Source: Myxococcota bacterium
GTDB taxonomy: Bacteria > Myxococcota_C > UBA6777
DNA: 64,000 nucleotides
Assembly (NCBI GenBank): GCA_023150835.1
Contig: JAKLKB010000024.1
Coordinates: 4,534 to 68,533 of the forward strand
Direction of reading: 5' to 3'
This document shows positions 9,427 through 61,052 of this stretch, piece after piece. The position numbers and the translations under genes are program-made. Each line of letters begins with the position of its first letter. Position 1 is the stretch's first letter. The notes below the pieces were generated by a model that had not been told where the DNA came from, searched no databases, and was given only the letters and a program-made list of their open reading frames with translations.

Positions 9427-9575
9427 GTAGGGGCAGCCCCCTGTGGCTGCCCAATAAAAGGGCGTCTGCGTAAAGATGTAGGGGCAGCCCTCTGTGGCTG
9501 CCCAATAAAAGGGCGTCTGTGTAAAGATGTAGGGGCAGCCCCCTGTGGCTGCCCAATAAAAGGGCGTCTACAGCA
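9427..9575. repeat. REP-like family A, three tandem ~57-bp units each containing the hairpin GGGGCAGCCCCCTGTGGCTGCCC
   Basis: Direct reading; the same unit occurs inverted at 19628-19770. Confidence 0.85.
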
Positions 9576-9617: not shown

Positions 9618-10316
9618 ATGCGTTTGTTTGTATTCGTGAGTTTGTTTGGCCTTTTGCTTGCCAAGGTGGAGATGTGTTCGACCCATCCATCGCTACCCGC
9701 TGAAGTGCGTGCGGAAACACCCGCCCAAGAAGACAAGTATGCGATCCCACCGCTGCCGCGTGTTCCAAACGGCGCAGAAGTGGCGATCTTTGCGGGCGGA
9801 TGCTTTTGGTGCGTCCAACCTCCTTTTGACAAACAAAAAGGCGTGCTTGCCACAAGCGTCGGATTCACGGGCGGCAGCGAAAAGAACCCCACCTACAAAG
9901 ACGTTGCCTACGGGCGAACCAGCCACACCGAAGCCTTGTTTGTGGTGTACGATCCAAAGCAGGTCACTTACGAAAAACTCTTGGATATCTTTTGGCGACA
10001 GATCCAACCCAACCAAAAAAACGGCCAATTTGCCGATATCGGGACGCAATATCGAACGGGGATTTTTTATACAAACGCGGCCCAACGCCGCGCCGCTGAA
10101 GCCTCGAAAAAAGCCATCGCTGCGAGCGGTTGCTTTCTTGCCGATATCGCCGTCGAGATCTCCAAGGCCACCCCGTTTTATCCCGCAGAAAATTACCATC
10201 AAAAGTATTATCAAAAAAATCCTTCACATTATCTGCGCTACAAGATCGGCTCGGGGCGAGCAGGTTATCTCGCCGCTCGCTGGACAGAAAAAGGCTGTCG
10301 CCCCCTCCCCAAATAA
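9618..10316 (+). CDS. msrA: Peptide methionine sulfoxide reductase MsrA (exported)
   Basis: GCFWC active site; N-terminal signal peptide. Confidence 0.8.
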   Translation: MRLFVFVSLFGLLLAKVEMCSTHPSLPAEVRAETPAQEDKYAIPPLPRVPNGAEVAIFAGGCFWCVQPPFDKQKGVLATSVGFTGGSEKNPTYKDVAYGRTSHTEALFVVYDPKQVTYEKLLDIFWRQIQPNQKNGQFADIGTQYRTGIFYTNAAQRRAAEASKKAIAASGCFLADIAVEISKATPFYPAENYHQKYYQKNPSHYLRYKIGSGRAGYLAARWTEKGCRPLPK

Positions 10317-12763: not shown

Positions 12764-12861
12764 CCTCTTCCATCGTCTCGTAAAAATCCGATGCGTCGTG
12801 CTTTCCATCGAATGTTTCTCCTTTGGTAGGCGAACCCTGATTAGAAACCTCACGGCTTGGC

Positions 12862-19627: not shown

Positions 19628-19770
19628 TAGGGCAGCCACAGGGGGCTGCCCCTACATCTTTACGCAGACGCCCTGTAATAGGGCAGCCACAGGGGGCTGC
19701 CCCTACATCTTTACGCAGACGCCCTGTAATAGGGCAGCCACAGGGGGCTGCCCCTACATCTTTACGCAGA
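19628..19770. repeat. REP-like family A, three tandem 57-bp units (inverted relative to 9427-9575)
   Basis: Reverse complement of the 9427 unit. Confidence 0.85.
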
Positions 19771-23000: not shown

Positions 23001-24215
23001 TTTTCACGCAGTCGGGCAGCGTTGGAGAAGAAAGCCCAAGAAAAGGGCGTCAAACTGTACGAGTTGTTTTTGAGTGAAGAAGCCACAAAGCCCGGGCCGA
23101 TCGAACGAACCATCGCACAATCGAAAGTGCTATTGCGTGTGGTCTCGGCGTTTTTTGGGTTGTGGACGGTGGCGCTGTTGTGCTTTGTGGATGCGGTGTT
23201 GTCGGTGTTTACGCAATATGCGCACAAGCTGTTGGGTTATTGGAAGACGTTGAAATCCAAAGGCAAGACCTTTTTGCGCAAACGCAATCGCACGCTGCAT
23301 CAAGGAATGGCCGAAGATCTGATGAAGTTGCGTTTGCAGCTTTCGCAGCTACTGCTGATGCCGGGGTTTTCGCCGCAAGAATGTGCGGCGTCGATCTCGA
23401 AAGAAGAACTCAAAGCGTTGGTGCTTTCGCCAACATTTCCGTTGCATCAAGTCCTTGAAGCGCGATGCCGCCTCGATGAAGTGAAGACCGATATCGGAGG
23501 GCTTTCGAGCTTTCATCTCCAGACATTTCTGAAAAAAGCGGTAAAAGGTGGGATCTTGCAGGTTGGCGAAAAGATCCTTGATCTGTTTAAGCACATCGTC
23601 CCCAATCCTTTTTTGTTTGTGCGTGGGTGGAAGGATCTGTATCTGATGTGGCGTTATATGCGCTATTCTCGGCGCGAGTTGCTTGAGATGTATGCGCGTC
23701 TTGTGGATGACTTTCAGACCTTGCTTGCGATGTCGCTTGAATCCGCCAACGCCAAAGACGCCGAAAAGGATGTCGCCCCCGAAACCATCGAACCTGTCTT
23801 GATGGCGCTGTTTCCGTATGAAGAAGCGTTGTTTGAGCGGCTGGGTTTGCAGAGAAACAGCTTGTTGCAAAAAAGCGAGATGAACCAGCGTCTTGCTGTC
23901 GAAGCGACACAGCGGGATATGCAGCGGTTGTTGCAGGTGATGTGTCTTGCAGGGCGCTTTTTGTTGCCGCAGCGTTGGTCGCGGGCTGAACTGCTGCTCG
24001 AATACCAAGCGATGTCCGCCAACAACCGTTTTTCGCCGCAAGTTGCCCTCGAAGTCGAGGCTTGGCTCGATCAAGAAGTCAAGCAGATCATCGACTCCAC
24101 CAAGATCCTCGCCCCCCATGAAGAATTCGAAGCACAGCTCCAAGAAGAGGCCCTCCGAAAGTCTCGACAACGCGCCCTGCGTAAGATCGTCAAACAACGT
24201 GGCTTTTGGGTCTGA
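20010..24215 (+). CDS. Giant (1401 aa) hypothetical membrane protein: N-terminal globular region, long Pro/Ala-rich and charged low-complexity middle, two TM helices, ~400-aa C-terminal domain
   Basis: Single uninterrupted ORF; PAPAPAA 18-bp DNA repeats at 21890-21990; hydrophobic segments near residues 960-1060. Confidence 0.6.
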   Translation: MYNHLPIYQAPYPKDILRSPDPHVFFASFDFLLESDPSFGGLGASLTMLHAMMTRPQYLVLVKKLPLASQDPKAFLAYVVCVLYDAERVEALPSEVAEGFARFLSKAEGGALERAAERLARYLLIFGPQQLVSGHSAFSQRLGLLREALLVWIGTFPVEHPPDDQAIRDQLWAIVPHYFPEHFPHLFPKNERVEDTDSWKDTLVTGVDLRGRLSTSVEPPASFEPLERPAPLDPLDPLAWRGERWERLSAAEDDLDTTITTGGWTVGEASDEGAMFGESPDEDKPSGAVLPVLSRSPVVKPEAEIREAGYGLRRGQPLVEERPADAQKSEDWGEDSDDLRVDELVEYDEEEAEETSEAVPADEVILTGLPKPAPRPADDILSRSMPSGAKPKPAPPPSYEVGRLSLESKPVPPSVVEKPPLPEEPPSMQPFDYTSTTRAGVLPPTTFPIPPGAPPLPPQTSAAPLPPQTSAAPPPPPKTSQLPPAPQKPSAAPAARGGVAPVPMRFERDEHTVLSSTGQFDAFQGTPVEDRSTTTKTETAKAPPLPSGGAPAAPFGGLPASTPPLEPSGYAAPMPPTSRSSGYAAPMPPPPPPPPISSADAAPPAVSAPAGPPAFRGPAAPAPAPAALAPAPAAPAPAPAAPAPAPAAPAPAPAPASDAPASVAAPAPAAPARRSGGAAPSLGKGASSLGPQSGEVAPELDDSRDLGGISDRERNRAPMRAAAKRSDEARGEASSKDGAKRSDEALLKDALSTEEGAGTGFEEKAKKKRKAADKYSEEMEKEQAEAPRPVEEGGEQEITRSQQELRLEEQKATLSEQDGQQKLIRREREIERAPAKEAKAEFAQLPDEEVASSVLEEDAPSMKADLAQFSDGEAASPVLEEAREPRAPDKKSLSGAAGGDADLGPSAEVSEPSPMRSSLPMPPAPSMPPAEIPPIALGKAPYPQQAPIEAPARSKSAFSALGRIISTILMFPLIVLAAPFAALYWVGKQIKRGVGWMFSRSRAALEKKAQEKGVKLYELFLSEEATKPGPIERTIAQSKVLLRVVSAFFGLWTVALLCFVDAVLSVFTQYAHKLLGYWKTLKSKGKTFLRKRNRTLHQGMAEDLMKLRLQLSQLLLMPGFSPQECAASISKEELKALVLSPTFPLHQVLEARCRLDEVKTDIGGLSSFHLQTFLKKAVKGGILQVGEKILDLFKHIVPNPFLFVRGWKDLYLMWRYMRYSRRELLEMYARLVDDFQTLLAMSLESANAKDAEKDVAPETIEPVLMALFPYEEALFERLGLQRNSLLQKSEMNQRLAVEATQRDMQRLLQVMCLAGRFLLPQRWSRAELLLEYQAMSANNRFSPQVALEVEAWLDQEVKQIIDSTKILAPHEEFEAQLQEEALRKSRQRALRKIVKQRGFWV

Positions 24216-24228
24216 TTCTGCTTAGGGG

Positions 24229-24306
24229 TTATACGAGATCCGCCCGCTGCGTGATCGTAAAAAAGTAGGGGCAGCCCCCTGTGGCTGCCCAAGCACAGGG
24301 CGTCTT
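24229..24306. repeat. REP-like family A single copy with its conserved 5' flank (TACGAGATCCGCC...GTGATCGTAAA)
   Basis: Matches 51032-51112. Confidence 0.75.
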
Positions 24307-42312: not shown

Positions 42313-43563
42313 ATGTCCAAACAGAAAGGCCAATCGAACAAGCGACTTAGCTGTTCGTTTTGTCACAAGAACCAACATGAAGTACGAAAGCTGATCGCTG
42401 GACCCAACGTATACATCTGCGATGAGTGTGTGCAACTGTGCAACGACATCATCGCCAACGCATTTGACCCCGAAGAAGCACGCCCGTCACTGGATATCCC
42501 CAAGCCGATCGAGATCAAAGAATTTTTGGATCAGTACGTCATTGGTCAAGATCTTGCGAAAAAAGTCCTGTCTGTCGCGGTGTATAACCATTACAAGCGG
42601 GTCGAATGCCGGCCTCGTACGGGGGAAGTCGAACTTCAAAAGTCGAATATCTTGTTGGTGGGACCGACAGGTTCAGGGAAAACGTTGCTTGCACAAAGCC
42701 TCGCACGTTTTCTGGACGTGCCTTTTGCGATGGCCGATGCAACGACCTTGACCGAGGCCGGTTATGTCGGCGAAGACGTCGAGAATGTGTTGGTGAGCCT
42801 ATTACAAGCCTCGGATTACAAGCTGGAGCGAGCCGAGCGAGGCATCGTATACATCGACGAGATCGACAAGATCGCTCGAAAAAGTGAATCCGCTTCGATC
42901 ACTCGCGATGTTTCTGGCGAAGGCGTTCAACAAGCCTTGTTGCGGATGCTGGAGGGGACGGTTGCCAATGTCCCCGCCAAAGGGGGCCGCAAACATCCCC
43001 ACCAAGAGTTTATCCAGCTCGACACCACGAATATCTTGTTTGTGGTGGGCGGAGCTTTTCACGGCATCGAGAAGATGATCGAAAAGCGGATCGCAGGAAG
43101 TCAGATCGGATTCCATGCGACTGTCCGTAGCAAGAAAGACTTTCGACTGGGTGAGCTTCTGCATCAAAGCGAACCCGAGGACCTAATTAAGTTTGGTTTG
43201 ATCCCCGAGTTTGTTGGACGCTTGCCTGTGGTGGCCACGATGGATGATCTCGACGAAGCCTCTTTGCTTCGTATCCTCAAAGAGCCTAAAAATGCGCTGG
43301 TTCGGCAGTACGAAAAACTCTTTATGATGGAAGGCGTCGCGCTACACTTCACCGAAGAAGCGCTCAAGGCGATCGCCAAAAAATGCATGGAACGCCAAAG
43401 CGGCGCACGCGGCTTGCGCGCCATCATGGAATCCGTCATGCTCGACGTGATGTACGATCTCCCCTCCCTTGAAGGCGTCAAAGAGTGCATCATCGACGCC
43501 GACGTCGTTCTCCATAGCGCCCCACCCACCATGATCTACAAAGAACACAAAAAATCCGCTTGA
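42313..43563 (+). CDS. clpX: ATP-dependent Clp protease ATP-binding subunit ClpX (canonical, with zinc-binding domain)
   Basis: CSFCHK...CDEC zinc-binding domain, [18 protein letters not shown]. Confidence 0.9.
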
Positions 43564-45506: not shown

Positions 45507-46298
45507 TTGGGGGTGCTACTCAAGGCGAGACTCCTTTGTGGTACGTTTGTGCGTTGTGCGTGTCAGCGGGTATGGCAAAGACGCGCTTGGACAAAGATGG
45601 GAGATCATGTGTTTTTGGTTCGTCTTGTCAAGTGTGGTGTTGTTTTTTGGCAGGTGTGGTGGGGTGTGGCGTGGGTGTGGCTTGTTGGTGCGGGCTGTGT
45701 TCCGCGAGTACGCTTGCCCGAGCCTAGGCCCTTTGTGGAAGATCGAAATAGCGGCGATGCGGCGTATCGTGCGTTGTTGTCGCGTGGTTATGCGCAGGCT
45801 CAAGCGGAGGCTTGGGAGCAGGTTGCGGCGTGTTGGGATGTTCGTGGAGCGTGGGGAAAGTTGTTGTACCAAGTGGAGTTGATATCGGGGCAGATCCCGC
45901 GTTGTCGTTTGGTGCGGATGACGTTGCATTATCAAGAGCACCGTCCGACGGCGAGTTGGAGGCGGTTGTTTGCGTTGCAACGCGATCGCTTGTTTACGGC
46001 GCAAGATGCGTACACTTTTTCGGCGCAAGTCGCACAAGAGCGAAAGGTCTTGCGTCGGCAGTGCGCAGAGGCGTGTCCGTTTGCTTTGCCTGCCTACATC
46101 GGAGCGTATCGAGGGCCGATGATGTGGCTGATGACGCGAGAACAATCCGAGCTACCGCCCGATACTCGCACTCCCCCACTGCCGCGCAGCGTACCACCGC
46201 AGCGCAGCGCACCACCGCAGCGCAGCGTACCACCGCAGCGCAGCGTACCGCCACCGCGTGATCTGCCCACCACTCGGCAGGTTCGGCCTTCGCCGTAA
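45507..46298 (+). CDS. Hypothetical protein with a C-terminal PQRSVPPQRS 18-bp-unit tandem repeat
   Basis: ORF; coding strand chosen over the Arg-rich antisense ORF. Confidence 0.3.
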   Translation: MGVLLKARLLCGTFVRCACQRVWQRRAWTKMGDHVFLVRLVKCGVVFWQVWWGVAWVWLVGAGCVPRVRLPEPRPFVEDRNSGDAAYRALLSRGYAQAQAEAWEQVAACWDVRGAWGKLLYQVELISGQIPRCRLVRMTLHYQEHRPTASWRRLFALQRDRLFTAQDAYTFSAQVAQERKVLRRQCAEACPFALPAYIGAYRGPMMWLMTREQSELPPDTRTPPLPRSVPPQRSAPPQRSVPPQRSVPPPRDLPTTRQVRPSP

Positions 46299-46318: not shown

Positions 46319-47599
46319 GTGAAAGATCAAAACAAACGAAACAAGCCAAGGAAGCGGGATTCTCACACGGGTATCACGGCACTTGCGCAAGGCGGAGGGC
46401 ATCGGCACTCGAAAGAGGTCGAGGCGTTTTCTTCGCAGACGAGCGCACAGGGGCAGGCTGCTGTGGTCGGCGAGAGAGTGATGACGTCGGTCGGTGAGGC
46501 CCACGTCGCGCAGGTCGAGGGCCATCTTGTGTTGGACCCGAAAGAACACGGTGGGGGGGATATCCATCCGTTGAATGATCCGCAGGACGTGCGGTTTTAT
46601 GGGATCGCCTATTGTTCGGCTTGGATAGAGGAGCGGGCATTTGAGGACGAAGGAGCTTTTTTTGCGTGGAAGCAAGAACTGAGCAAGCGTGCGCCGAGCG
46701 AAGAGGTGATCTTTTGGTTTAACATCAACGACAACATGGACAAGGAGATGCTTGCGCGTGTGCAGCGGCGTTTTGATCTGCATCCTTTGGTACGCGAAGA
46801 TATCTCGGATGTGCGCCAACGCCCGAAGTTCGAGGAGTACGAGCAAAGCTTATATATCTTGTTGAAGATGTTGACGTACAGCGAAACGAAAGAGGCGATG
46901 GAACGCGAGCAGATCAGCATCTTTTGGGGGCGGGATTGGGTGTTGACGATCCAAGAGCGCGAGGGGGATGTGTTTCAGCATCTGCGCCGCCGTTTGCGCG
47001 AAGGGATCGGGCTTTTGCGCAAAAAAGGCTCGGATTATCTGGTGTACGGTTTGTTTAGTGCGATCTTGGATCAGTACTTTGTGGTCTTGGATCGTTTGAA
47101 CGATCGGATCGAAGAGTTGGAAGATGCGTTGTTGGAACAGACGGGGCATCGGGAGCTTTTAGAAGATCTGTATCTGTTGCGCCGCCAGTTGATGCGTGTT
47201 CGCAAGGCGGTGTGGCCGGTGCGTGAGATCGTGCGCGGGATGCAGGAGTGCGAGAGTCCCATCATCCAAGAAGCGATGTCTGCGTATCTGCGGAATCTCT
47301 TGGATGAGTCGATGCAGATTGGGGATATGGTCGAAAACGCTCGTGAATTGGCAGCGAGCTTAATGGATCTGCACTTGTCTACGGTGAATGCGCGGATGGG
47401 AGTGGCGATGCGTTGGTTGGCGATGGTGTCGTTGACCTTCGTTCCGCTGAATTTGATCGCGGCGATCTATGGGATGAACTTTAAGTATATGCCTGAGTTG
47501 CAGTGGAGATACGGATATTTTGGGATCTTGGGTTTGATGGTGTTCATCGCGTCGGGTTTGACGTGGTTGTTTTATTCGAGGGGGTGGTTTCGCTCTTGA
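46319..47599 (+). CDS. corA: CorA-family Mg2+/Co2+ transporter
   Basis: YGMNF (GMN) motif followed by two C-terminal TM helices; start may be the internal Met near 46481. Confidence 0.75.
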   Translation: MKDQNKRNKPRKRDSHTGITALAQGGGHRHSKEVEAFSSQTSAQGQAAVVGERVMTSVGEAHVAQVEGHLVLDPKEHGGGDIHPLNDPQDVRFYGIAYCSAWIEERAFEDEGAFFAWKQELSKRAPSEEVIFWFNINDNMDKEMLARVQRRFDLHPLVREDISDVRQRPKFEEYEQSLYILLKMLTYSETKEAMEREQISIFWGRDWVLTIQEREGDVFQHLRRRLREGIGLLRKKGSDYLVYGLFSAILDQYFVVLDRLNDRIEELEDALLEQTGHRELLEDLYLLRRQLMRVRKAVWPVREIVRGMQECESPIIQEAMSAYLRNLLDESMQIGDMVENARELAASLMDLHLSTVNARMGVAMRWLAMVSLTFVPLNLIAAIYGMNFKYMPELQWRYGYFGILGLMVFIASGLTWLFYSRGWFRS

Positions 47600-49398
47600 A
47601 GCAGGTATGGGCGTTGTCGAGCGTGCGTTGGTGGCGAGACGTGGCGGGTGGACGTGTCGAGATCGTCTTGAGCGAATGGGGCGGAGAAGCCTTGGAAGAG
47701 GAGGACGTGATCTCTTTGAGGGAAGGCATGATCTTGTGTGGAGGACCGATCCCTTCGGAAGAATCGACATCGTATGGGTTGATCTACGATGGCCGAGAGG
47801 CTCCGTTGGCGATCGCATCGGTGCAATTGCAGGAGCAGCGTGATTATGTGCTGGAGGTCTTGTGGGAGGGGGAGGGCGAGGCTCCGCAGTTTGCGTGTTT
47901 TCCGCAGTTTTCGTCTGCGGTCTTTCATGCGCATCGGACTCGTCGCAAGGGCGTGATCGCGGGGGGAAAGTTGAACTTTCGGGATTATGTGGGAGGGGCT
48001 TGGTTTGAGGTGGATTGGGGCGGTCGGGCGATGTGGCGGGAATCGGTCGAGGTGCGCTCGAAAAAGTTGGATTATTTGCAGGAGTATGTGGTGTTGATGG
48101 AGGACTTGGCTGCACAGGCAACAGCGCTGTTGTTTCAAGTCAAAAGCCCCGTGTATGCGGTCTTTCAACAAGCCCGTGCGGGTCGTGCGCGGGCGGGCTT
48201 AGAACACTTTTTGTTGCTGCGCCATGTGTTGCTCGATCCTTCGATGGATGCGGCTTTTTGGGAGATCGCGCAATCGCCCATCCAAGCCCTTCGCCAAGAA
48301 CAGCGTTGGCGACCTACTGCACAGGTCTCTTCAATCGATCCGCGCTCTTGGTTGCGAGGGTTGCACAAAGGTGGCGTGTATCGGTCTTTTCCAGAGAATG
48401 CGGCGACGGGCGCTAACGATCGATGCCTCGAACCTCGCCGAAAACTGGGGCATCACGGAACATCGGAGCGTCACGATATCTTGCCGACTCAAGTCGTGCC
48501 GGCGCGGTTGCCTGTTTGGGCCAAGACGTGGACTTCGGATACCTCGGAAAACCGCTTTGTGTTGTGGCTGCTCGATTCGTTGTCGCGGATATTGGAGGAG
48601 ATGAGACAGGTGTTTCGTCGGGCTGGGGAAGTCGGTTATGTGGGGGAGTTGGAGCGGTTGGGTCGTTTGTGTGAAGTGTGGCGTACGCGATTGCCCTTTG
48701 CAGGGGAGGTTCCGTCGGAGTGGCCGCGTGTGTTTCCATTTGCGCATCTGCGGGGGCGGGCAGGTTATCGCGAGGTGCTGGCTTGTTCGGAGCGGATGTC
48801 TTCGATCTTGCAGCTTTCATGGGAAGAGGGGGCGCAAGCGATCGCAGGGCCGCTGCGGGATATGGCGAAACTTTACGAATACTGGGCTTTTTTTGAGATA
48901 TGGCGGGCATTGAACAAGATCGCAACGCCGACGGGACCTGTGTTTCCACAGACGGTCGAGGAATCACAGGGGCTTGTGTTGCGGCTCAAGCGCGGCGCGG
49001 ACAGTGCGCTGCATTTTGTCTCTGGGGACTTGGTGTTGGTGTTGTACTACCAACTGCGTTTTGAGGTGGGAGGCGGGATCTTACAATCATACTCTGTGCC
49101 GATGACACCCGACTTTTCGATCGTGTTGCGGCGGAAAGAACAGGTGTTGGGCGTTTTGTGTTTTGATGCAAAGTATCGGCCTGAAGGGTCGCTCGAAAAG
49201 ATGCACGCCTATCGGGACGCGTTGCGGGGTGCGTTGGGGGTTTATTTGCTGTACCCGGGAGATCCCCAAGAACCTGTGATCTTTACGCAAGATCCGAATC
49301 GTCCGCTGTTGGGGGTTGGCGCATTCCCCTTGCGTCCGCAACCCTCGGCTCGCCAATGGCTTCCTGCCTTTTTGTCGGTGATCTTGGAACAAGTTTAG
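47503..49398 (+). CDS. Large hypothetical protein whose C-terminal region carries a candidate PD-(D/E)xK nuclease motif (start uncertain, probably ~47600-47730)
   Basis: ...PDFSIVL...VLCFDAKYR...; the ORF's 5' end overlaps the corA 3' end in another frame. Confidence 0.45.
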   Translation: MEIRIFWDLGFDGVHRVGFDVVVLFEGVVSLLKQVWALSSVRWWRDVAGGRVEIVLSEWGGEALEEEDVISLREGMILCGGPIPSEESTSYGLIYDGREAPLAIASVQLQEQRDYVLEVLWEGEGEAPQFACFPQFSSAVFHAHRTRRKGVIAGGKLNFRDYVGGAWFEVDWGGRAMWRESVEVRSKKLDYLQEYVVLMEDLAAQATALLFQVKSPVYAVFQQARAGRARAGLEHFLLLRHVLLDPSMDAAFWEIAQSPIQALRQEQRWRPTAQVSSIDPRSWLRGLHKGGVYRSFPENAATGANDRCLEPRRKLGHHGTSERHDILPTQVVPARLPVWAKTWTSDTSENRFVLWLLDSLSRILEEMRQVFRRAGEVGYVGELERLGRLCEVWRTRLPFAGEVPSEWPRVFPFAHLRGRAGYREVLACSERMSSILQLSWEEGAQAIAGPLRDMAKLYEYWAFFEIWRALNKIATPTGPVFPQTVEESQGLVLRLKRGADSALHFVSGDLVLVLYYQLRFEVGGGILQSYSVPMTPDFSIVLRRKEQVLGVLCFDAKYRPEGSLEKMHAYRDALRGALGVYLLYPGDPQEPVIFTQDPNRPLLGVGAFPLRPQPSARQWLPAFLSVILEQV

Positions 49399-49600
49399 GC
49401 GTTGCAAGGGGATGAGCGTGGCTTGGATTGACAGATTTGATTTTTCGCTTGTATGTACATCGTACCATCCGAGAGATAGGCAGGTTTGGTTTTGTCCTGC
49501 GAGGCTTGACCTGTTGCTTGGAGCTTGGCAGGCAGAGCGCTGTCGCCCGTGATGCAGGCCAAGGGGCTTGACCCGTTGAGCGGAGCTTGGGAGGCGTTGG

Positions 49601-50932
49601 ATGATCAAATGGTTCGCGCTATTGGGATGTTCGGTGATCGCCTTTGCGTTGTTGGGGGGGGCTTATGCGTATTGGCGGGCCAATCCACCGCTGCCCGTCG
49701 AGGCCGAACGCTACAAGAAGGTGAGTTTGTTTGTGCCGCCCAACCCGCCTTCTTCCGCCGAGATGGAAGAGTACCTTCGACAGAGCGGTGATATGGAGAT
49801 GCGCAATATGCGCAACCTCGATCACATCCGCACCAAGATCCAATCGGGGCGTTGGCCTGCTGAGATGGAGTTGTTGTCGTGGGTTCAAGCCACCGATCTA
49901 GATCTCAAACGCTTTGAAGCGGCCTTGCGTTCGAAGGGCTGTTTTCCGCAAGAAAAAACCACACGCAGCGCGAGCGAACAGGGCGATACGCGGCGTTTTC
50001 GGTACTCGCGCTTTGTCTGGGGGGTCGAGTTGATCACGTACCAATCGTTGCTGTTTTTTCGGCGTGGTGCGGCTCCAGAGGCGATCAAACGGCTGGAGAT
50101 GTTGCACGAGAACTTGTTGCGCTACGAGATGGCGTGTGGGGCTTCGCTGTTGGTGGTCAATGTGATCTCGGCTTCTGTACAGGTGTTTTTGGATGGCGTG
50201 CTGTTTTCGCTGCGGGCTGATGGACTGACGCAAGAAGAGCATGGGCGTCTGTTGGATATCTTGTTTGCGTGGGCGACGCGCCCGCCGTTGTCTTTTGCGA
50301 TGGCGCTGCGTCAAGAAGCCCATCAGGCCAAGAAGATCATCGATCTCTTTCGCCAACAGATCAAAAACAAGATCCAACAAGCACAGCACGACGAGCAGGC
50401 GATCCCGAAAGAGGTCGGCGATGAATTTATGGATCAAATCCATGTCATTGATTTTGCCCAAACCAAGGACTTGATCGAACAAAAGTATCGTTGCTTGGTC
50501 GCCAAAGTCGAGCAACCTTTGTCGCCTGATACCTTTCAACCTTGTCCTGTCGAGCGTTATCTCCGTCGGCTGCGCAAGAAAAAGAAAGGGGAGATGTTGC
50601 TGATGTTGCGCCGCAACGTCGTGGGGCATTTTTTGCTGGCGCAGATGACGCCACGTTATCGGACGTATCTGTTGAACTGGTATGCGTCGAGATGTCGGGC
50701 CGCAGCGCATCTGGCGTTGTGGTATCGGTCTTTGAGAGCGCAGGACAAAAAGCTCGCTCCTTCGCGTTATTTGTTTGAGCCAGAGAATCCTTACACGCGG
50801 GAGCCTTTTGGCGCTTCGCTGGAACAGGTGTGCGCCTTGCCTTTGTGGATCGCGCAGGTGTATCCACAGGCCGAAGGGATCGCCGAGCGCAGCCGCCCAC
50901 CGCTACCTGCGCGATTAAAGCGCGTCGAATAG
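49601..50932 (+). CDS. Hypothetical N-terminally membrane-anchored protein
   Basis: N-terminal TM (WFALLGCSVIAFALLGGAYAYW); no recognisable motif. Confidence 0.4.
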   Translation: MIKWFALLGCSVIAFALLGGAYAYWRANPPLPVEAERYKKVSLFVPPNPPSSAEMEEYLRQSGDMEMRNMRNLDHIRTKIQSGRWPAEMELLSWVQATDLDLKRFEAALRSKGCFPQEKTTRSASEQGDTRRFRYSRFVWGVELITYQSLLFFRRGAAPEAIKRLEMLHENLLRYEMACGASLLVVNVISASVQVFLDGVLFSLRADGLTQEEHGRLLDILFAWATRPPLSFAMALRQEAHQAKKIIDLFRQQIKNKIQQAQHDEQAIPKEVGDEFMDQIHVIDFAQTKDLIEQKYRCLVAKVEQPLSPDTFQPCPVERYLRRLRKKKKGEMLLMLRRNVVGHFLLAQMTPRYRTYLLNWYASRCRAAAHLALWYRSLRAQDKKLAPSRYLFEPENPYTREPFGASLEQVCALPLWIAQVYPQAEGIAERSRPPLPARLKRVE

Positions 50933-51031: not shown

Positions 51032-51112
51032 ATACGAGATCCGCCTGTTGTGTGATCGTAAAGATGTAGGGGCCGACCCCTGTGTCTGCCCAAGAATAGG
51101 GCGTCTACATAC
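51032..51112. repeat. REP-like family A single copy (variant GGGGCCGACCCCTGTGTCTGCCC) with the conserved flank
   Basis: Matches 24229-24306. Confidence 0.7.
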
Positions 51113-53939: not shown

Positions 53940-54065
53940 GATACGATATCCAGTTGATGTGTGATCGCGATGTTGATGCGATCCGCTGTAATTGCCCTAT
54001 TGGGGGGCAGCCACAGGGGGCTGCATTTGAGGGCAGCCACAGGGGGCTGCCCCTACGTTTTATGA
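53940..54065. repeat. REP-like family A, two partial inverted hairpin copies
   Basis: GGGCAGCCACAGGGGGCTGC x2. Confidence 0.7.
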
Positions 54066-55719: not shown

Positions 55720-56075
55720 CGCTTATCGTGTGCGTCAAAATGTAGGGGCAGCCCCCTGTGGCTGCCCGACCACAGGGCGTCTACAGCGGATCGCTCCTAT
55801 CCTTCGAACACACATTTCTAGGATATCGCATGATCCGAAATCCGCCTATCGTGTGCAATATGTAGGGGCAGCCCTCTGTGGCTGCCCGACCACAGGGCGT
55901 CTACAGCGGATCGCTCCTATCCTTCGAACACACATTTCTAGGATATCGCATGATCCGAAATCCGCCTATCGTGTGCGCCAATATGTAGGGGCAGCCCTCT
56001 GTGGCTGCCCGACCACAGGGCGTCTACAGCGGATCGCTCCTATCCTTCGAATACACATTTCTAGGATATCGCATG
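55720..56075. repeat. REP-like family A array, three ~120-bp units
   Basis: Direct reading. Confidence 0.85.
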
Positions 56076-56078
56076 AGA

Positions 56079-57968
56079 TCAGCTATGGCGGGAGGTGTGT
56101 TCAAAGACTTCGAGTTTGAATTCGCCGATGGGGTCTTCGGAGAGTTCGAGGATGCTGTGGTAGCTGAGATGATCGGATTTGAGTTCGGGTTCTTCGGGGA
56201 GTTGTCGAGCGACTTCGTAGGCGAAGTGTTCGAGTTTTTGTTCGTCGGTATCGGGGGAACTGATGGCGAGGATACCGTTGAAGGGGGCGAAGATACGGAC
56301 GCGATCACCGAAGCGGATCTTGAGTTTGGACAGAGCGCCTTTGAGCAGGGCGGGGTGAGCGGCGATGGAGGCGGCGTCACGGCCCATCAGAGCGACCATT
56401 TGGATACCACGCAAGAAAGAGCGGCGGGTGGTGTAGCGCAGTTTGTAGTGGTGTAGGGCAAGATCGCGTTGGAACAGGGCTTCGGCGCGATCGATATCGC
56501 CGTTGACCATGCGCAGACCGTAGATGGTGTCGTGTTCGCATTCGTCGGTAAAGATCTCGAATAGGCCATCTTTGCGTTCGCGAAACAAGAAGGCTTCGGG
56601 TTCTTGCATCATCTCGGCATAGCAAGATTGGAAGCGTTCGCGGGACATCAAGCGTTTGCCGACGTAGCGCAGAGATTCCGAGGTCTTGTTCGAGACCAAC
56701 CAACTCACCAGCCGCGAAAGGGCTTGATCGTCGGTCGGGTCGATATGATCGGCGATATGAGCGAAGGTCAATAACTCCAACGGATTTTCGTTGCGAAACA
56801 CCATCAGCTTGCCAAAGTCAGCCCATTGTGTCGAAAAGCCGGGTGGAAGCCGATTGAGGAAGCGTTCGTAGACGCGCTCTTCTTTTTGTAGGGCTTTGAC
56901 GATGCGTTCCATCGTGAGCCAGATCTGATCGCTGATCAGCCGGCCTTTGTAGATGGCGAGCAGTTGGAGCAATTCGAGTGGTGGAAAGCGACGAGATAAC
57001 CCCGTTGTGGTGCTGATCCACCACGCGGGTTCGCTGTCGTCTTGGCCGTAGACTTCGTTGATCTCGACTTGGAAGTGCGCCGCTGCGTTTGCAAAGTGTT
57101 GCATCGCGAGGCTGTCGATGGAAAACACGATGGCTTGGAGTTTTCCTTCGCGCAGAGACTCCGCAAGGCGTGGGTCGAGCCAGTCCGCATAGATGCCGTG
57201 ATCGAGGCCCACCGCTTTGCGTTGATCGAGCGGCCAGCGGTCGATCCCGACGAGGCGACGGCGAGGGATGCTTTCTTTTTGAAAGAACTGCCAAAAGTCT
57301 TCGCTTGCGAGTTCGCGCATTTGACATTCAACTTGTACGCTGTCCTTTTCTTGGGTCGCAAACAAGAAATGTCCTTCATCCACGCGCAAGAACGCCGCTC
57401 CGTGTTCTTCGGCATCCAACAGCACTTGTCGCCATGATGAACGCACCGAAAGAACCCGCCCGATCTCTTCGAGGCAAAGCGCATCATCTAAAAAGATCGG
57501 CGCTGTATCGGGTGGACGGGTGCGGAAGTAGTCTGGATGATCGCGGAAAAATTGGATCGGATCGGGTGTCGCATCAAAACGAAAGCGGATGCGTTGGACT
57601 TCGCCTTGATCGAAGGTGAAGTCGCACAAGATACATCCCGAATGATCGGGCATTCCGACACCGAGCACTGCGCGGCGGGCATCATTGGGTGATGAGGCAC
57701 GACCGCACTTGGTGCAATGAGTGTCGATGTGCCGCGTGATCTGGTGGATCTCTTCGATCAGCTTCTCGGGTTGCAGATCATCGATCTCGATCTGCCGTCG
57801 TGATGGATAGTAATAGCTATGTTCGCAGGTGCATTGCATCACAACGTAAAATACATACGAAACAAAATACGGCTGCTCGGGGCTTGGGATGATCGAGGAT
57901 GGTTGGGCCATATCGTGATCCTCTTTGGGCAAAGGAGGGACGGGGGACGCATCGGACTTCAACACCAT
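56079..57968 (-). CDS. Hypothetical 610-629-aa protein with N-terminal Cys pairs (CTCEH...CTKCG; C..C)
   Basis: Long ORF; AAGAGGA RBS before the Met at 57911. Confidence 0.5.
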   Translation of the reverse strand: MVLKSDASPVPPLPKEDHDMAQPSSIIPSPEQPYFVSYVFYVVMQCTCEHSYYYPSRRQIEIDDLQPEKLIEEIHQITRHIDTHCTKCGRASSPNDARRAVLGVGMPDHSGCILCDFTFDQGEVQRIRFRFDATPDPIQFFRDHPDYFRTRPPDTAPIFLDDALCLEEIGRVLSVRSSWRQVLLDAEEHGAAFLRVDEGHFLFATQEKDSVQVECQMRELASEDFWQFFQKESIPRRRLVGIDRWPLDQRKAVGLDHGIYADWLDPRLAESLREGKLQAIVFSIDSLAMQHFANAAAHFQVEINEVYGQDDSEPAWWISTTTGLSRRFPPLELLQLLAIYKGRLISDQIWLTMERIVKALQKEERVYERFLNRLPPGFSTQWADFGKLMVFRNENPLELLTFAHIADHIDPTDDQALSRLVSWLVSNKTSESLRYVGKRLMSRERFQSCYAEMMQEPEAFLFRERKDGLFEIFTDECEHDTIYGLRMVNGDIDRAEALFQRDLALHHYKLRYTTRRSFLRGIQMVALMGRDAASIAAHPALLKGALSKLKIRFGDRVRIFAPFNGILAISSPDTDEQKLEHFAYEVARQLPEEPELKSDHLSYHSILELSEDPIGEFKLEVFEHTSRHS

Positions 57969-58147: not shown

Positions 58148-60352
58148 TCATTCGGGGTATTGGACTTTGGCAGGGGTTGAGATCGAGTCCGAGGAGCCAT
58201 CTCCGAGAAAGCCGTTGCCTCGGTATCCCCAGCAGTGAGTCGTGTTGTTTTTCAACACGGCGCAAGTGTGGAATTTGCCAGCGGAGATCTGCTGAACATC
58301 GGACAAGGAGGCGAGCTTGGTGGGGCTGTTGAGGAGGGGGGTTGATCCCTCGCTGGCTTGATTTTGGTCGTTTTTGCCCCAGCAATAGGCTGTGCCATCT
58401 TTGACAACGGCGCACGTGTGTTCGTTTCCGCCCGATACCTGCACGACACCGGTCAAGTTTGGAACTTGGACGAGTTTGCGTGGCTCCGTGTCAGCTTTGC
58501 CGAGTTGTCCTGAAGAGTTGTCTCCCCAACAGGTGACCGTTCCGTCTTGGCGGACTGCGCAGGTGTGCGCAGTCCCAGAGGAGATCTGTTTGACGTTTTC
58601 GATGCCTTGGATTTTTTTCGGGGCTTCACCACAAGAAACGAAACTGTCGCAGAATTTCTGCATGGCCTGTCCTTCACGGTTCTCTCCCCAACAATACACA
58701 CTTCCATTGTTATCAAGAGCGCAGGTGTGTTTCGAACCAGCCGAGATTTGCAGGATGTTGTTGAGATAAGGCACACGGACGGGGTGAGCGATGTGTGGGT
58801 TGATGTGTACGGTGTCGGGTTCGAGCCCGATGCCGAGCCGCATATCGGACTGAGCGCCCCAACAAGCCACATATCCGTCGTTGAGGACAGCGCAAGTATG
58901 TTGGCCGCCTGTTGATATCTGTTTGACGTTCGCGAGCTGGACGACAGGTATGGGGGCCAAGCGCTTTTCTTGCGTGTTGTCTCCAAGTTGTCCAAATTCG
59001 TTATCCCCCCAACAATGGGCCGTTCCGTCGTTGAGGACAGCGCAGGTTTGAGCCGCACCTACGGAGACTTGTTTCACGTTGGCGAGAGTCGCGACTTGTG
59101 TGGGGGCTCCTCCCTGTTGTGATGTGCTGCCGAGTTGCCCAAAATCGTTGTTTCCCCAGCAGTGTGCGGTGTTGTCTTCGAGAACGGCGCAAGAGTGAGA
59201 GGAGCCAGCGGAGACGCTTTTGGTCTTTGTAGAAAGTTGCGCTTGGATCGGCTTTTTAGCGTTTTGGTGGGTGCCGTTGCCCAATTTCCCTAAACCGACT
59301 TCTCCCCAACATCGGGTGGTTCCGTCTTTGAGTGCGACGCAGGTATAACAGCCTCCTGCGGAGGCGTATTGCACTTCGGACAGCTCACCGATCTGCACAG
59401 GGCTTGTTTGATGGCGGGACGAGGTGCGATCAAGCTGCTTACAGGTGTTGTCTCCCCAGCAATGGAGGCTTCCGTCTTCGAGCGTGGCGCAGGTGTGATG
59501 ATGACGAGTGGAGATGTGTTTGGCGTTGGCGATGCCTTTGACTTGGACGGGGGTTGTGCGGTTTTCGGTGGTGCCGTCTCCAAGCTCTCCTTCTGTATTG
59601 AGTCCCCAGCATCGGACGGTACCGTCTTGGAGTAGCGCGCAGGTGTGCGCATGGCCGATCTCGATCTGCTTGGCGTTTGTGAGGCCCTTGACTTGGACGG
59701 GGGTTGTGCGGCTTTCGGTGGTGCCGTCCCCAAGCTCTCCATACGAATTGCCTCCCCAGCATCGGGCCGTTCCATCGTTGAGCAGCGCGCAGGTCTGGTA
59801 GTTGGCAGCGAAGATCTGCTTGATGTCGGTGATGCCTTTGACTTGGACGGGGGTTGTGCGGCTTTCGGTGGTGCCGTCCCCAAGCTCTCCTTGACTGTTG
59901 TGCCCCCAGCATTGGGCCGTTCCGTCTTGGAGTAGCGCGCAGGTGTGCCAGTAGCCTGTGGATATCTGCTGGACGTTCTTCAACGGCTGGATCAGCACAG
60001 GTTTGGTGTCGGAACCCTTTGAGTTCTCGCCTGTGTAACCGTGAATTCCCCAACAGAAGACTGTTCCGTCTTGGAGCAGCGCGCAAGTGTACCGGTAGTT
60101 TAAAGATATCTGCTTGACTTTGGACAGACCTTTGATTTCCACAGGGGTGCTTCGGTTCTCTTTCGTTCCATCCCCCAATTGTCCATCCGAGTTGTTGCCC
60201 CAACAGTACACGCTTTCGTTGGAAAGTATCGCGCAAGTGTGTACCATTCCTGCGGAGATCTGCATGGTGGTTGGTGCATGAGAACAAGCAGGCAAGAGCG
60301 CACCAAGGGCGAACGCGCAGAAGATAGATCGCCACGAGAGTTTTTCGATCAT
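58148..60352 (-). CDS. RCC1-repeat beta-propeller lipoprotein (~13 repeats)
   Basis: Lipobox LLPAC; repeating CWGxNxxGQLGDGT units. Confidence 0.75.
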   Translation of the reverse strand: MIEKLSWRSIFCAFALGALLPACSHAPTTMQISAGMVHTCAILSNESVYCWGNNSDGQLGDGTKENRSTPVEIKGLSKVKQISLNYRYTCALLQDGTVFCWGIHGYTGENSKGSDTKPVLIQPLKNVQQISTGYWHTCALLQDGTAQCWGHNSQGELGDGTTESRTTPVQVKGITDIKQIFAANYQTCALLNDGTARCWGGNSYGELGDGTTESRTTPVQVKGLTNAKQIEIGHAHTCALLQDGTVRCWGLNTEGELGDGTTENRTTPVQVKGIANAKHISTRHHHTCATLEDGSLHCWGDNTCKQLDRTSSRHQTSPVQIGELSEVQYASAGGCYTCVALKDGTTRCWGEVGLGKLGNGTHQNAKKPIQAQLSTKTKSVSAGSSHSCAVLEDNTAHCWGNNDFGQLGSTSQQGGAPTQVATLANVKQVSVGAAQTCAVLNDGTAHCWGDNEFGQLGDNTQEKRLAPIPVVQLANVKQISTGGQHTCAVLNDGYVACWGAQSDMRLGIGLEPDTVHINPHIAHPVRVPYLNNILQISAGSKHTCALDNNGSVYCWGENREGQAMQKFCDSFVSCGEAPKKIQGIENVKQISSGTAHTCAVRQDGTVTCWGDNSSGQLGKADTEPRKLVQVPNLTGVVQVSGGNEHTCAVVKDGTAYCWGKNDQNQASEGSTPLLNSPTKLASLSDVQQISAGKFHTCAVLKNNTTHCWGYRGNGFLGDGSSDSISTPAKVQYPE

Positions 60353-61052
60353 AACGAACCTCCGGGTTGTTAGGCGTGAGGCCCAACATGGGCCGATATC
60401 CACGCATGAAGTTTCTAGGTTTTCCCTGTTTTATGGGCTTCGATGTAAGGCAAGTCCTCAAATCCCCAGACTTTCAAACGCAGAAGTCATGTTTCGCCTT
60501 TTTAGAAAAGTAGCGTTAAAAAGTCTTTGTTTTTGATGGCAGTCGTGCTATAAATCAAAAGGCGTGCCAGATAGCCTTGAGCGACGGGTTGGAGGGCGAA
60601 ACTTCAAGCGGAAAGGCCAATAGAGAAGGGCGTGGCGTGGGGGGGGATTGCTTGGGATGGGTGGGCAGAAGCTGGTTTCGATAGGCGCAAGCCTGCTCCG
60701 ATCAGGCGAGAGCAGGCTCCCACAGGCGAACGGCTGCTCCATCTGGAGTGGTGTGGTATCCGTCAAGCGCGAGATCGAAGTGATCAGGGCAGGCTCCCTC
60801 GTGGCTCCACCAAAACAGAATCGCAGCACGCGAACGCACCGATAGGTTGAGCGCACTTCTTTCGGATCTCGTGTTGGTTTGTCGATTTTCTCGAAGGCGG
60901 TTGTTTCTTTCGCTTTTTTCTTGTACGCTCCCCTCCATCTTTTTTTGCAACCCTGTCTTTGCTCCCTGATGGCCCATACAAGATCCTGCCCGCAAGCCGC
61001 GACCGCGTAGGGGCTGTCCCCATCACTCAACGAAAACACTTTGGAGGTTCCG

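What the first reader, a model, noticed from the sequence alone, without database searches (positions are those of the whole stretch)
47503..50932. Two co-directional unknowns downstream of corA: a ~600-aa protein with a candidate PD-(D/E)xK nuclease core, plus a 443-aa membrane-anchored partner
The larger protein's C-terminal region has PDFSIVL...VLCFDAKYR..., the classic D-x(n)-(D/E)xK arrangement on predicted beta-strands, preceded by ~400 aa with no recognisable motif. This architecture resembles the McrC-like or DUF2357/DUF524-type accessory nucleases of defence systems, but no ATPase or GTPase partner is adjacent. The downstream gene encodes an N-terminally anchored protein of unknown fold. 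A REP copy follows the pair at 51032.
Basis: inference. Interest (0 to 1): 0.55.

Follow-up and report, generated by a model that had tools for sequence, protein, structure and literature searches.

The report
Solo McrC-type nuclease without its motor
The larger gene encodes a McrC-family restriction-type nuclease with an intact active site, from a small Myxococcota lineage that lost the usual McrB GTPase partner yet kept the nuclease under selection at a fixed housekeeping locus; the downstream "partner" is probably just a syntenic periplasm-facing protein.

Summary
Both ORFs are real and under purifying selection (dN/dS 0.12-0.20, similar to corA). ORF1 (probable start TTG 47596, 600 aa) matches Pfam DUF2357 (E 3.5e-26) plus PDDEXK_7/DUF524 (E 1e-19). 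What is unusual is the context. Among surveyed homologues, 32 of 32 outside the clade abut a McrB-type P-loop gene. ORF1 instead belongs to a clade (NJ bootstrap 30/30) with no such neighbour in 0 of 8 informative loci. These clade members sit in stable non-defence contexts (rplM-rpsI/corA, dctQM, SRPBCC). Within the clade the nuclease motifs are 100% conserved. Two DUF2357 hallmark motifs have decayed in several sublineages, and the stalk-tip insert evolves neutrally. ORF2 is an N-terminally anchored, all-helical protein with four invariant cysteines, probably periplasm-facing. It is adjacent to ORF1 only in the seven syntenic loci, and three out-of-clade ORF2 relatives have no McrC-like neighbour. 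A two-gene defence system is therefore not supported. A McrB gene elsewhere in the genome could not be excluded.

The parts
47596..49398 (+). ORF1: solo McrC-family nuclease, 600 aa from the probable TTG start. The maximal ORF starts at GTG 47503, and GTG 47563 is an alternative start.
   Evidence: Pfam DUF2357 E 3.5e-26 and PDDEXK_7 E 9.7e-20. Foldseek top hit is 6UT6_G, E. coli McrC, E 4.2e-4, probability 0.98. dN/dS is 0.13-0.20. The start overlaps the corA stop, and NCBI annotates a 600-aa version.
47596..47964 (+). N-terminal beta-rich region of ORF1 (aa 1-123), probably the McrC 'scaffold' domain.
   Evidence: The AF2 model shows beta strands, and the Foldseek hits for this part are Ig-like sandwiches. 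E80 and Y84 of QLQEQRDY are invariant even in McrB-linked homologues. The all-beta N-terminus of DUF524 proteins is described in PMC1913061, and the scaffold barrel of TgMcrC in PMC7680126.
47965..48627 (+). DUF2357 (McrC finger-type) domain, aa 124-344. It includes the clade-specific NFRDYVGG motif (47974-47997) and the DTSENRF motif (48538-48558). The GYREV motif follows at 48763-48777.
   Evidence: Pfam match, motif census, coordinates.
48370..48492 (+). Hypervariable, low-confidence insert (aa 259-299). In the AF2 model it lies between the two strands of the predicted beta stalk, so it is inferred to be the stalk tip.
   Evidence: Length varies from absent to about 60 aa among clade members, with SGYH-like repeats in L005. 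pLDDT is below 50. dN/dS is 0.6-1.0 here against 0.06-0.26 in the rest of the protein.
48868..49395 (+). PD-(D/E)xK nuclease domain (PDDEXK_7/DUF524). Motif I E428 in LYEYW (48871-48885); motif II P505-D506 (within 49105-49116); motif III D524-A-K526 (within 49162-49179); motif IV MHAYRD (within 49198-49227).
   Evidence: Pfam match. Motifs are invariant in 14 of 14 solo and about 98% of 185 other homologues. Motif definitions come from PMC1913061. dN/dS is 0.055-0.09.
49601..50932 (+). ORF2: 443-aa N-terminally anchored (or signal-peptide-bearing) all-alpha protein of unknown function, probably periplasm-facing.
   Evidence: SD GGAGG followed by ATG. AF2 pLDDT 68, all helical, TM helix aa 2-27. 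No significant PDB fold match. The family has 47 clusters, with C114, C179, C365, C411, N339 and G342 invariant in 44 of 44 members, and basic N-termini before the TM helix in many members. dN/dS is 0.12-0.14.
46319..47599 (+). corA (Mg2+/Co2+ channel). Its stop overlaps the ORF1 start. It is absent from the same position in L004 and L008, so it is not an obligatory part of the unit.
45597..46298 (+). Conserved small lipoprotein gene (lipobox LVGAGC) with a Pro-rich PPQRS-repeat tail. It is the first gene of the syntenic block.
   Evidence: Orthologues occur in L001, L002, L004 and L005 at 37-82% identity, all with a ...G-C lipobox. Start coordinate.
51066..51091 (+). REP-like hairpin repeat copy downstream of ORF2.
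   Evidence: 9 copies in the window with up to 3 mismatches, 0 expected.

Best explanation
ORF1 is a McrC-family endonuclease with the canonical layout: a beta-rich scaffold, a DUF2357 finger domain and a DUF524/PDDEXK_7 PD-DxK catalytic domain. It belongs to a vertically inherited clade, found in Myxococcota and 'Deltaproteobacteria' MAGs, in which the adjacent McrB GTPase gene has been lost. Shown: the catalytic centre (E428, D506, D524, K526 and the MHxYRD helix) is intact and is the most strongly constrained part of the protein. Inferred: it is an active metal-dependent phosphodiesterase that most likely acts as a dimer through its nuclease domains, as McrC does, without GTP-driven translocation. 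The former McrB-binding finger has been retained as a structural or regulatory module whose stalk tip is free to drift. Its fixed position among housekeeping genes suggests a resident cellular role, such as nucleic-acid repair or processing or constitutive low-level restriction, rather than a mobile defence cassette. The substrate is unknown. ORF2 is a separate, periplasm-facing helical protein that is syntenic with ORF1, and possibly co-transcribed with it, but is not a mechanistic partner.
For: Family and fold: Pfam DUF2357 plus PDDEXK_7; Foldseek top hit E. coli McrC 6UT6_G; all four DUF524 motifs present. Loss of partner: no McrB-type gene in the 64-kb window. 0 of 8 informative clade loci have an abutting G-x-[ST]-G-[ST]-G-K-[ST] ORF, against 32 of 32 distinct non-clade homologues with at least 2 kb on both flanks. 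Homologues at 27% identity sit in textbook contexts: MrcB_N-AAA_5 plus McrC-like in L012, and Vsr, C5-MTase, AAA and McrC-like next to transposases in L011. Clade: the window group, L004/P0067, P0068-70 and L014 are monophyletic in 30 of 30 NJ bootstraps. Vertical inheritance and housekeeping context: the lipoprotein-[corA]-ORF1-ORF2 block next to rplM-rpsI occurs in seven loci, with all genes diverging in parallel; other clade members follow dctQM (L014) or an SRPBCC gene (L009). Selection: ORF1 omega is 0.13-0.20, the nuclease domain 0.055-0.09 and the stalk-tip insert 0.6-1.0. Relaxation of DUF2357 hallmarks: the ENR Arg is present in 175 of 185 non-clade proteins and the GYR Arg in 181 of 185, but these are lost in L004/P0067, P0070 and L014, while the nuclease motifs are intact in 14 of 14. 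ORF2 unlinked.
Against: Only about 10 kb of flank per relative, and 64 kb for the window, could be inspected, so a McrB gene elsewhere in these genomes is not excluded. In the window's own lineage both DUF2357 motifs (DTSENRF, GYREV) are still intact, and the domain has omega 0.07-0.26. This is what one would expect if a ring-ATPase partner were still engaged. E. coli McrC has no known nuclease activity without McrB (established knowledge of EcoKMcrBC), and ORF1 has no added DNA-recognition domain, so how a solo enzyme would find its targets is unexplained. The AF2 model is only moderate (pLDDT 64, pTM 0.42). The clade is small (about 12 distinct proteins in three known contexts), and the count comparison is not phylogenetically independent. 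ORF1-ORF2 adjacency does persist down to 38% ORF1 identity, with gaps as short as 26-34 bp in L002 and L008.
Confidence: 0.6

Rival explanations
1. ORF1 is still the nuclease subunit of a McrBC-type restriction enzyme whose McrB GTPase is encoded at a distant locus (a split system).
For: The DUF2357 domain is under purifying selection, and the DTSENRF and GYREV motifs are intact in the window lineage. Bell et al. note that McrB and McrC are occasionally separated by intervening genes.
Against: None of 8 informative clade loci has a McrB-type gene within 3.6-47 kb, whereas 32 of 32 non-clade homologues have it abutting. The two motifs decay in three clade sublineages while the nuclease stays intact. 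The stalk-tip region, which in McrC plugs the McrB ring (PMC7680126), evolves neutrally and varies by up to about 60 aa.
Confidence: 0.22
2. ORF1 and ORF2, perhaps together with the upstream lipoprotein, form a new two- or three-gene envelope-coupled defence or stress system in which a membrane-anchored sensor controls a cytoplasmic nuclease.
For: ORF1-ORF2 adjacency is conserved in seven loci down to 38% and 49% identity, while the downstream flank and the presence of corA vary. Intergenic gaps are only 26-77 bp in L002, L008 and L004. No convincing terminator or promoter lies in the window's 202-bp gap.
Against: All seven loci belong to one syntenic lineage, so the adjacency may be inherited gene order. 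Clade members L009 and L014 lack ORF2. ORF2-family members P0020, P0022 and P0025 lie in three unrelated contexts without any McrC-like gene. ORF2's body is probably periplasmic, given basic N-termini before the TM helix and four invariant Cys. There is no PADLOC hit and no island features.
Confidence: 0.1
3. ORF1 is a decaying remnant of a former McrBC cassette with no current function.
For: The partner is absent, part of the finger domain is degenerate, and an independent orphan (P0071/L010) exists whose nearest relatives are McrB-linked.
Against: The reading frame is intact and full length in at least 12 distinct proteins spanning 34-99% identity. omega is 0.13-0.20 overall and 0.055-0.09 in the nuclease domain, equal to or lower than corA. 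The catalytic motifs are 100% conserved.
Confidence: 0.03

Closest known systems
DUF524/DUF2357-type McrC-like subunits of McrBC-like and LlaJI/BsuMI-like restriction systems (COG1700; Pfam PF09823 + PF04411)
   Same: Same two Pfam domains in the same order. Same beta-then-alpha N-terminal region. Same nuclease motifs: E, PD, DAK and MHxYRD. Similar length to some members, such as the 593-aa and 605-aa proteins of L012 and L011.
   Different: Those proteins abut a McrB-type AAA+ GTPase gene (32 of 32 in the survey), often together with a methyltransferase, Vsr or transposases. ORF1 and its clade have no such neighbour and sit in stable non-defence contexts. The clade has its own invariant NFRDYVG motif and shows decay of the DTxENRF and GYREV motifs in some lineages.
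E. coli K-12 McrC (EcoKMcrBC; PDB 6UT6 chain G) and Thermococcus gammatolerans McrC
   Same: Best structural match of the ORF1 model. Finger-plus-nuclease layout with a PD...DAK catalytic motif. A weak profile match aligns ORF1 DTSENRF with EcMcrC 101-EDTLANR.
   Different: No detectable sequence similarity by phmmer or hmmsearch against PDB sequences, and a different Pfam family (PF10117 for EcMcrC). EcMcrC is 348 aa, lacks the N-terminal scaffold, and works only within a McrB hexamer (PMC7680126). Equivalence of any ORF1 residue to the GTPase-stimulating Lys157/Arg263 was not established.
CoCoNuT CnuC (McrC homologues with insertions in DUF2357; Bell et al. 2024, PMC11090510)
   Same: McrC-derived proteins with N-terminal beta-sandwich domains and insertions inside DUF2357.
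   Different: CnuC proteins pair with CnuB/McrB (NxD clade), carry coiled-coil, CSD or zinc-ribbon insertions, and in some types have inactivated nucleases. ORF1 has no partner, its insert is a short low-complexity loop, and its nuclease is intact.

Membership tests
McrC-like DUF2357 + DUF524/PDDEXK_7 protein family (COG1700) | N-terminal DUF2357 (PF09823) domain | tested here: met
   E 3.5e-26, 92.4 bits against a cut-off of 23.3, aa 155-375 of the 631-aa ORF.
McrC-like DUF2357 + DUF524/PDDEXK_7 protein family (COG1700) | C-terminal PDDEXK_7 (PF04411) nuclease domain with motif I Glu, motif II PD, motif III DAK and motif IV MHxYRD (as defined in PMC1913061) | tested here: met
   Pfam E 9.7e-20. 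E428, P505-D506, D524-A-K526 and M536-H-A-Y-R-D541 are all present and invariant across the clade.
McrC-like DUF2357 + DUF524/PDDEXK_7 protein family (COG1700) | McrC-like three-dimensional architecture | tested here: met
   The only Foldseek PDB hit with E < 1e-3 is 6UT6_G, McrC (E 4.2e-4, probability 0.98). TM-scores are low (0.17/0.26) and the model is moderate (pLDDT 64).
McrBC-type (Type IV / LlaJI-like) restriction system | McrB-type AAA+ GTPase gene in the same operon or neighbourhood | tested here: not met
   None in the 64-kb window. 0 of 8 clade loci against 32 of 32 other homologues. A distant locus in the genome could not be searched.
McrBC-type (Type IV / LlaJI-like) restriction system | GTPase-stimulating Arg/Lys on the McrC finger helical bundle (TgMcrC R263 / EcMcrC K157; PMC7680126) | tested here: inconclusive
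   Candidate arginines in DTSENRF and GYREV are present in ORF1 but lost in three clade sublineages. Their equivalence to R263/K157 was not established, because hhalign against EcMcrC gave only E 0.09.
McrBC-type (Type IV / LlaJI-like) restriction system | Location in a variable defence island, or linkage to methyltransferase, type I R-M or mobile-element genes | tested here: not met
   Conserved synteny with rplM-rpsI, clpX and corA in seven loci. No methylase, integrase or transposase nearby, and no compositional break.
McrBC-type (Type IV / LlaJI-like) restriction system | GTP-dependent cleavage of modified DNA | not testable with these tools
   Requires biochemistry.
Known anti-phage defence systems (PADLOC-DB v2) | Match to a PADLOC protein model | tested here: not met
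   ORF1 has no hit at E <= 1. ORF2 has only chance-level Cas3d hits at E 0.03-0.04.
ORF2: any curated protein family (Pfam, NCBIfam) or solved fold | Significant profile or fold match | tested here: not met
   No Pfam or NCBIfam hit. Best Foldseek PDB E is 0.19, to designed helical repeats. It belongs to an unnamed family of 47 clusters at 50% identity.

The most novel reading that the evidence does not exclude
A McrC-derived nuclease has been domesticated. After losing McrB it became a McrB-independent, chromosomally fixed enzyme with a cellular role in a Myxococcota lineage, for example in DNA or RNA repair or processing, or in a defence mode that needs no translocase. The old ring-binding finger would then be repurposed as a regulatory or dimerisation module.
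Probability: 0.3. Interest if true: 0.6.

Novelty: new variant of a known kind. Interest (0 to 1): 0.4.

Why it matters
McrC is regarded as an obligate accessory of the McrB GTPase motor, and large censuses such as Bell et al. 2024 kept only McrB-containing neighbourhoods, so orphans were mostly set aside. A clade that keeps a fully intact McrC nuclease under strong purifying selection, with no neighbouring motor gene, in housekeeping synteny, and with the finger motifs decaying, suggests this nuclease can work, or be regulated, without GTP-driven translocation. If confirmed, it would be a compact natural example of a defence nuclease being repurposed. It would also allow a direct test of what the DUF2357 finger domain does apart from activating McrB. 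The effect on annotation is modest: such genes should not be called McrBC systems or defence loci on domain content alone.

Tried and rejected
1. Direct sequence searches of PDB chains with ORF1 (phmmer) and with the 15-sequence profile (hmmsearch) returned only chance hits. McrC similarity is visible only through Pfam and fold comparison.
2. hhalign of the family profile against E. coli McrC gave only a 38-column match at E 0.09. I therefore did not claim which ORF1 residue corresponds to the GTPase-stimulating Lys157/Arg263.
3. The hypothesis that short (~600 aa) length marks solo proteins is rejected, because the 593-605-aa homologues in L012 and L011 are McrB-linked.
4. The hypothesis that all orphan proteins form one clade is rejected. 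P0071/L010 groups with the McrB-linked L019, L029 and L016, and 'all solo' was monophyletic in only 1 of 30 bootstraps. The clade is defined without it.
5. My first partner count used a biased 'informative' filter, so I recounted using only loci with at least 2 kb on both flanks.
6. The nearby ClpX-like AAA+ gene as a surrogate motor is rejected. It is a standard zf-C4_ClpX/AAA_2 protein about 4 kb away, and it is on the opposite strand in L004 and L008.
7. corA as a functional partner is rejected, because it is absent between the lipoprotein gene and ORF1 in L004 and L008.
8. The genome-contig scan with the close-clade profile returned only one extra genome. Rfam and tRNA scans of the window found nothing.
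9. ORF2 against PADLOC gave only chance-level Cas3d hits, and the ORF2 fold search gave only generic helical-repeat noise.

Full report
OBSERVATION. The two ORFs exist as described: 47503..49398 (+; maximal ORF 631 aa) and 49601..50932 (+; 443 aa). The upstream gene is corA (TIGR00383 E 4e-78). The conserved part of ORF1 begins at QVWALSS. A TTG at 47596 overlaps the corA stop (cTTGAag) and is preceded by GAGGGGG. In the orthologous locus L002 the same junction is a 4-nt overlap. This start gives 600 aa, the length NCBI annotates for MCK6509832.1, 'DUF2357 domain-containing protein [Myxococcota bacterium]', in the 99%-identity cluster. The REP-like hairpin repeat is real: 9 copies in the window against 0 expected, with one at 51066-51091.

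WHAT ORF1 IS. ORF1 matches Pfam DUF2357 (E 3.5e-26) and PDDEXK_7, the former DUF524 (E 9.7e-20). Knizewski et al. 2007 (PMC1913061) defined DUF524 by four motifs: a motif I Glu, PD, DAK and MHxYRD, preceded by an all-beta then alpha-helical region. ORF1 has E428 (LYEYW), P505-D506, D524-A-K526 and M536-H-A-Y-R-D541. These residues are invariant even in homologues at about 25% identity. An AlphaFold2 model built from a 15-sequence alignment is of moderate quality (pLDDT 63.7, pTM 0.42). It shows a beta-rich N-terminus, a helical middle part with a long beta hairpin, and an alpha/beta C-terminal domain. Its only Foldseek PDB hit below E 1e-3 is chain G of 6UT6, E. coli McrC in the McrBC complex (E 4.2e-4, probability 0.98). 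The remaining hits are Ig-like sandwiches matching the N-terminus. This agrees with the scaffold-finger-nuclease layout described for McrC by Niu et al. 2020 (PMC7680126). Bell et al. 2024 likewise treat DUF2357 as the McrC N-terminal domain (PMC11090510).

CONTEXT. No McrB-type GTPase is adjacent or anywhere in the window. The only AAA+ proteins are two ClpX-like proteins and a sigma54 activator. The window is otherwise housekeeping: T2SS genes, pyruvate kinase, glycine-cleavage T protein, rpsI-rplM and a TldD-like protease. It shows no compositional break. Close homologues (99, 86, 78 and 67% identity) come from Myxococcota or Myxococcales MAGs and show the same gene order: clpX / rpsI-rplM / small lipoprotein / corA / ORF1 / ORF2. 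Two more divergent loci (L004 and L008, 38-39% ORF1 identity) keep rplM-rpsI / lipoprotein / ORF1 / ORF2 but lack corA. All genes of the block diverge in parallel, which indicates vertical inheritance at a fixed locus.

A SOLO CLADE. A profile search recovered further relatives, and a metagenome scan returned 80 loci. Loci scoring above 500 bits on the clade HMM have no same-strand P-loop ORF nearby other than clpX about 4 kb away. These loci are the window, L001, L002, L005, L013, L004, L008, L009, L010 and L014. Among other homologues with at least 2 kb on both flanks, 32 of 32 distinct proteins abut an ORF of at least 300 aa carrying G-x-[ST]-G-[ST]-G-K-[ST]. For the clade loci the figure is 0 of 8 informative loci. 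This comparison is not phylogenetically independent. At 27% identity the contexts are textbook: MrcB_N-AAA_5 followed by the McrC-like gene in a Methanobacteriales MAG (L012), and Vsr, C5-methyltransferase, AAA and the McrC-like gene beside transposases in Rhizobium (L011). A neighbour-joining analysis of 169 proteins recovers one clade in 30 of 30 bootstraps, comprising the window group, L004/P0067, P0068-P0070 and L014. P0071 (L010) groups instead with the McrB-linked L019, L029 and L016, so it is a separate orphan. Clade members outside the syntenic group also lie in non-defence contexts. L014 has dctQ-dctM-[McrC-like gene with a 4-nt overlap] followed by a 231-aa Sir2/CobB-like gene. L009 has the gene after an SRPBCC gene, near dctPQM and TauE.

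SELECTION AND MOTIFS. dN/dS for ORF1 against L005, L001 and L002 is 0.20, 0.13 and 0.16. For the nuclease domain it is 0.055-0.09. ORF2 gives 0.12-0.14 and corA 0.13-0.17. ORF1 is therefore not a decaying remnant. An insert at aa 259-299 has dN/dS of 0.6-1.0, pLDDT below 50, and lengths from absent to about 60 aa, with SGYH-like repeats in L005. In the model it lies between the two strands of the beta hairpin. I infer that this is the stalk tip, which in McrC plugs the bottom of the McrB ring (PMC7680126). The correspondence is an inference from the secondary-structure order, not a structural superposition. In a census of 185 distinct non-clade and 14 solo proteins, the nuclease motifs are intact in 14 of 14 solo proteins. 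The DUF2357 hallmarks behave differently. The Arg of DTxENRF is present in 175 of 185 non-clade proteins and the Arg of GYREV in 181 of 185. Both are lost in L004/P0067 and in P0070, and the first is also lost in L014 (ENPENIF). Both are intact in the window lineage. Conversely, NFRDYVG is nearly invariant in the solo proteins and variable elsewhere. hhalign against E. coli McrC aligns DTSENRF with 101-EDTLANR only weakly (E 0.09). I therefore do not claim which residue corresponds to the GTPase-stimulating Lys157/Arg263.

ORF2. ORF2 has no Pfam or NCBIfam match and no meaningful PADLOC match. AF2 (pLDDT 68, pTM 0.68) predicts an N-terminal TM helix (aa 2-27) and an all-helical body. The best Foldseek PDB E-value is 0.19, to designed helical repeats. 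An exhaustive profile search finds 47 clusters at 50% identity, mostly 400-480 aa. Across 44 full-length members, C114, C179, C365, C411, N339 and G342 are invariant. Almost all members have an N-terminal hydrophobic helix followed by an ANP motif, and many have strongly basic N-termini before the helix. By the positive-inside rule and the paired invariant cysteines I infer a periplasm-facing body. A cleavable signal peptide (AYA|Y) is an alternative for the window protein. ORF2-like genes occur beside ORF1-like genes only in the seven syntenic loci. Three out-of-clade ORF2 relatives lie in three unrelated contexts with no McrC-like gene, and the clade members L009 and L014 have no ORF2. In the window a 202-bp gap separates the genes, with no convincing promoter or terminator. 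In L002 and L008 the gap is 26-34 bp. Co-transcription is possible, but a mechanistic partnership is not supported.

MECHANISM. Shown: ORF1 is a McrC-family protein with a complete and strongly constrained PD-DxK active site. The clade has no McrB neighbour. The locus is stable and sits among housekeeping genes. Inferred: ORF1 is a metal-dependent endonuclease acting without GTP-driven translocation, probably as a dimer through the nuclease domains, as McrC dimerises in McrBC (PMC7680126). The finger domain would be retained for folding, regulation or oligomerisation. The substrate and biological role are unknown. The main weakness of this reading is that a McrB gene elsewhere in the genome could not be excluded and that the finger motifs are intact in the window lineage. 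I give the split-system rival 0.22, a new ORF1-ORF2 system 0.10, and a dead remnant 0.03.

COMPARISON AND NOVELTY. ORF1 is a member of the known DUF2357/DUF524 McrC-like family, and NCBI already annotates it as a DUF2357 domain-containing protein. It fails the system-level criteria for McrBC: it has no McrB neighbour and no island context. The literature held here describes DUF524 as linked to COG1401 (PMC1913061) and as a McrBC-like subfamily (PMC2614495). The 2024 census kept McrB-containing neighbourhoods plus only manually annotated orphans. I found no description of a conserved McrB-less clade, although this library is incomplete. I rate it a new variant of a known kind, of moderate interest.

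Noticed in passing
window 9427-9452, 9529-9554, 19630-19757 (three copies at 51-bp spacing), 24265-24290, 51066-51091, 54031-54056, 55742-55767: A REP-like intergenic hairpin repeat family, GTAGGGGC(A/C)G(C/A)CCCCTGTG(G/T)CTGCCC, with 9 copies in 64 kb and none expected by chance. One locus holds three copies in tandem at 51-bp spacing.
   Followed up: partly
window 10487-12880 (-) and 12862-14550 (-): A second ClpX-like AAA+ gene (AAA_2 plus ClpB_D2-small, 562 aa with a roughly 250-aa N-terminal extension and no ClpX zinc finger hit) overlaps the start of a 797-aa HEAT-repeat protein gene. This unusual AAA+/HEAT pair is distinct from the canonical clpX at 42313-43563.
   Followed up: no
window 20010-24215 (+) and 56079-57968 (-): Large ORFs of 1401 aa and 629 aa have no Pfam match at E <= 1e-3.
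   Followed up: no
window 58148-60403 (-): A 751-aa protein is made almost entirely of RCC1 repeats (13 repeats; WD40_RLD E 8e-163), a eukaryote-like beta-propeller.
   Followed up: no
window 45597-46298 (+): A conserved small lipoprotein (lipobox LVGAGC) has a C-terminal proline-rich tandem repeat (PPQRS x4) whose repeat number differs between orthologues. It is the first gene of the syntenic block, and in L004 and L008 it directly precedes the McrC-like gene.
   Followed up: partly
L005 about 10000-10170 (ORF1 orthologue insert): The stalk-tip insert of the KLAP109 orthologue is expanded by a G-[HY]-[FH]-G-[AT]-S / SGYH-like low-complexity tandem repeat. The same site has no insert at all in P0003 and L004.
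   Followed up: partly
L014 5705-10527: In a 178-kb metagenome contig the clade member is fused into a dctQ-dctM operon (4-nt overlap with the dctM stop) and is followed by a 231-aa Sir2-family gene. L009 also has dctPQM nearby. Both the window's corA and L014's dctM are membrane-transporter genes whose stop overlaps the start of the nuclease gene.
   Followed up: partly
L010 8001-9746: A second, independent McrB-less McrC-like gene (P0071, with a faint extra PF10117 McrBC hit) lies between a bPH-domain gene and a short-chain dehydrogenase gene. Its nearest relatives (L019, L029) have the McrB-type gene immediately downstream rather than upstream.
   Followed up: partly
window 46319-46700 (+): The corA ORF as listed has a roughly 120-aa N-terminal extension before the Pfam CorA match begins (aa 130), and the true start may be further downstream. 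A PPQRS-repeat-encoding region and several long alternative-frame ORFs overlap here.
   Followed up: no
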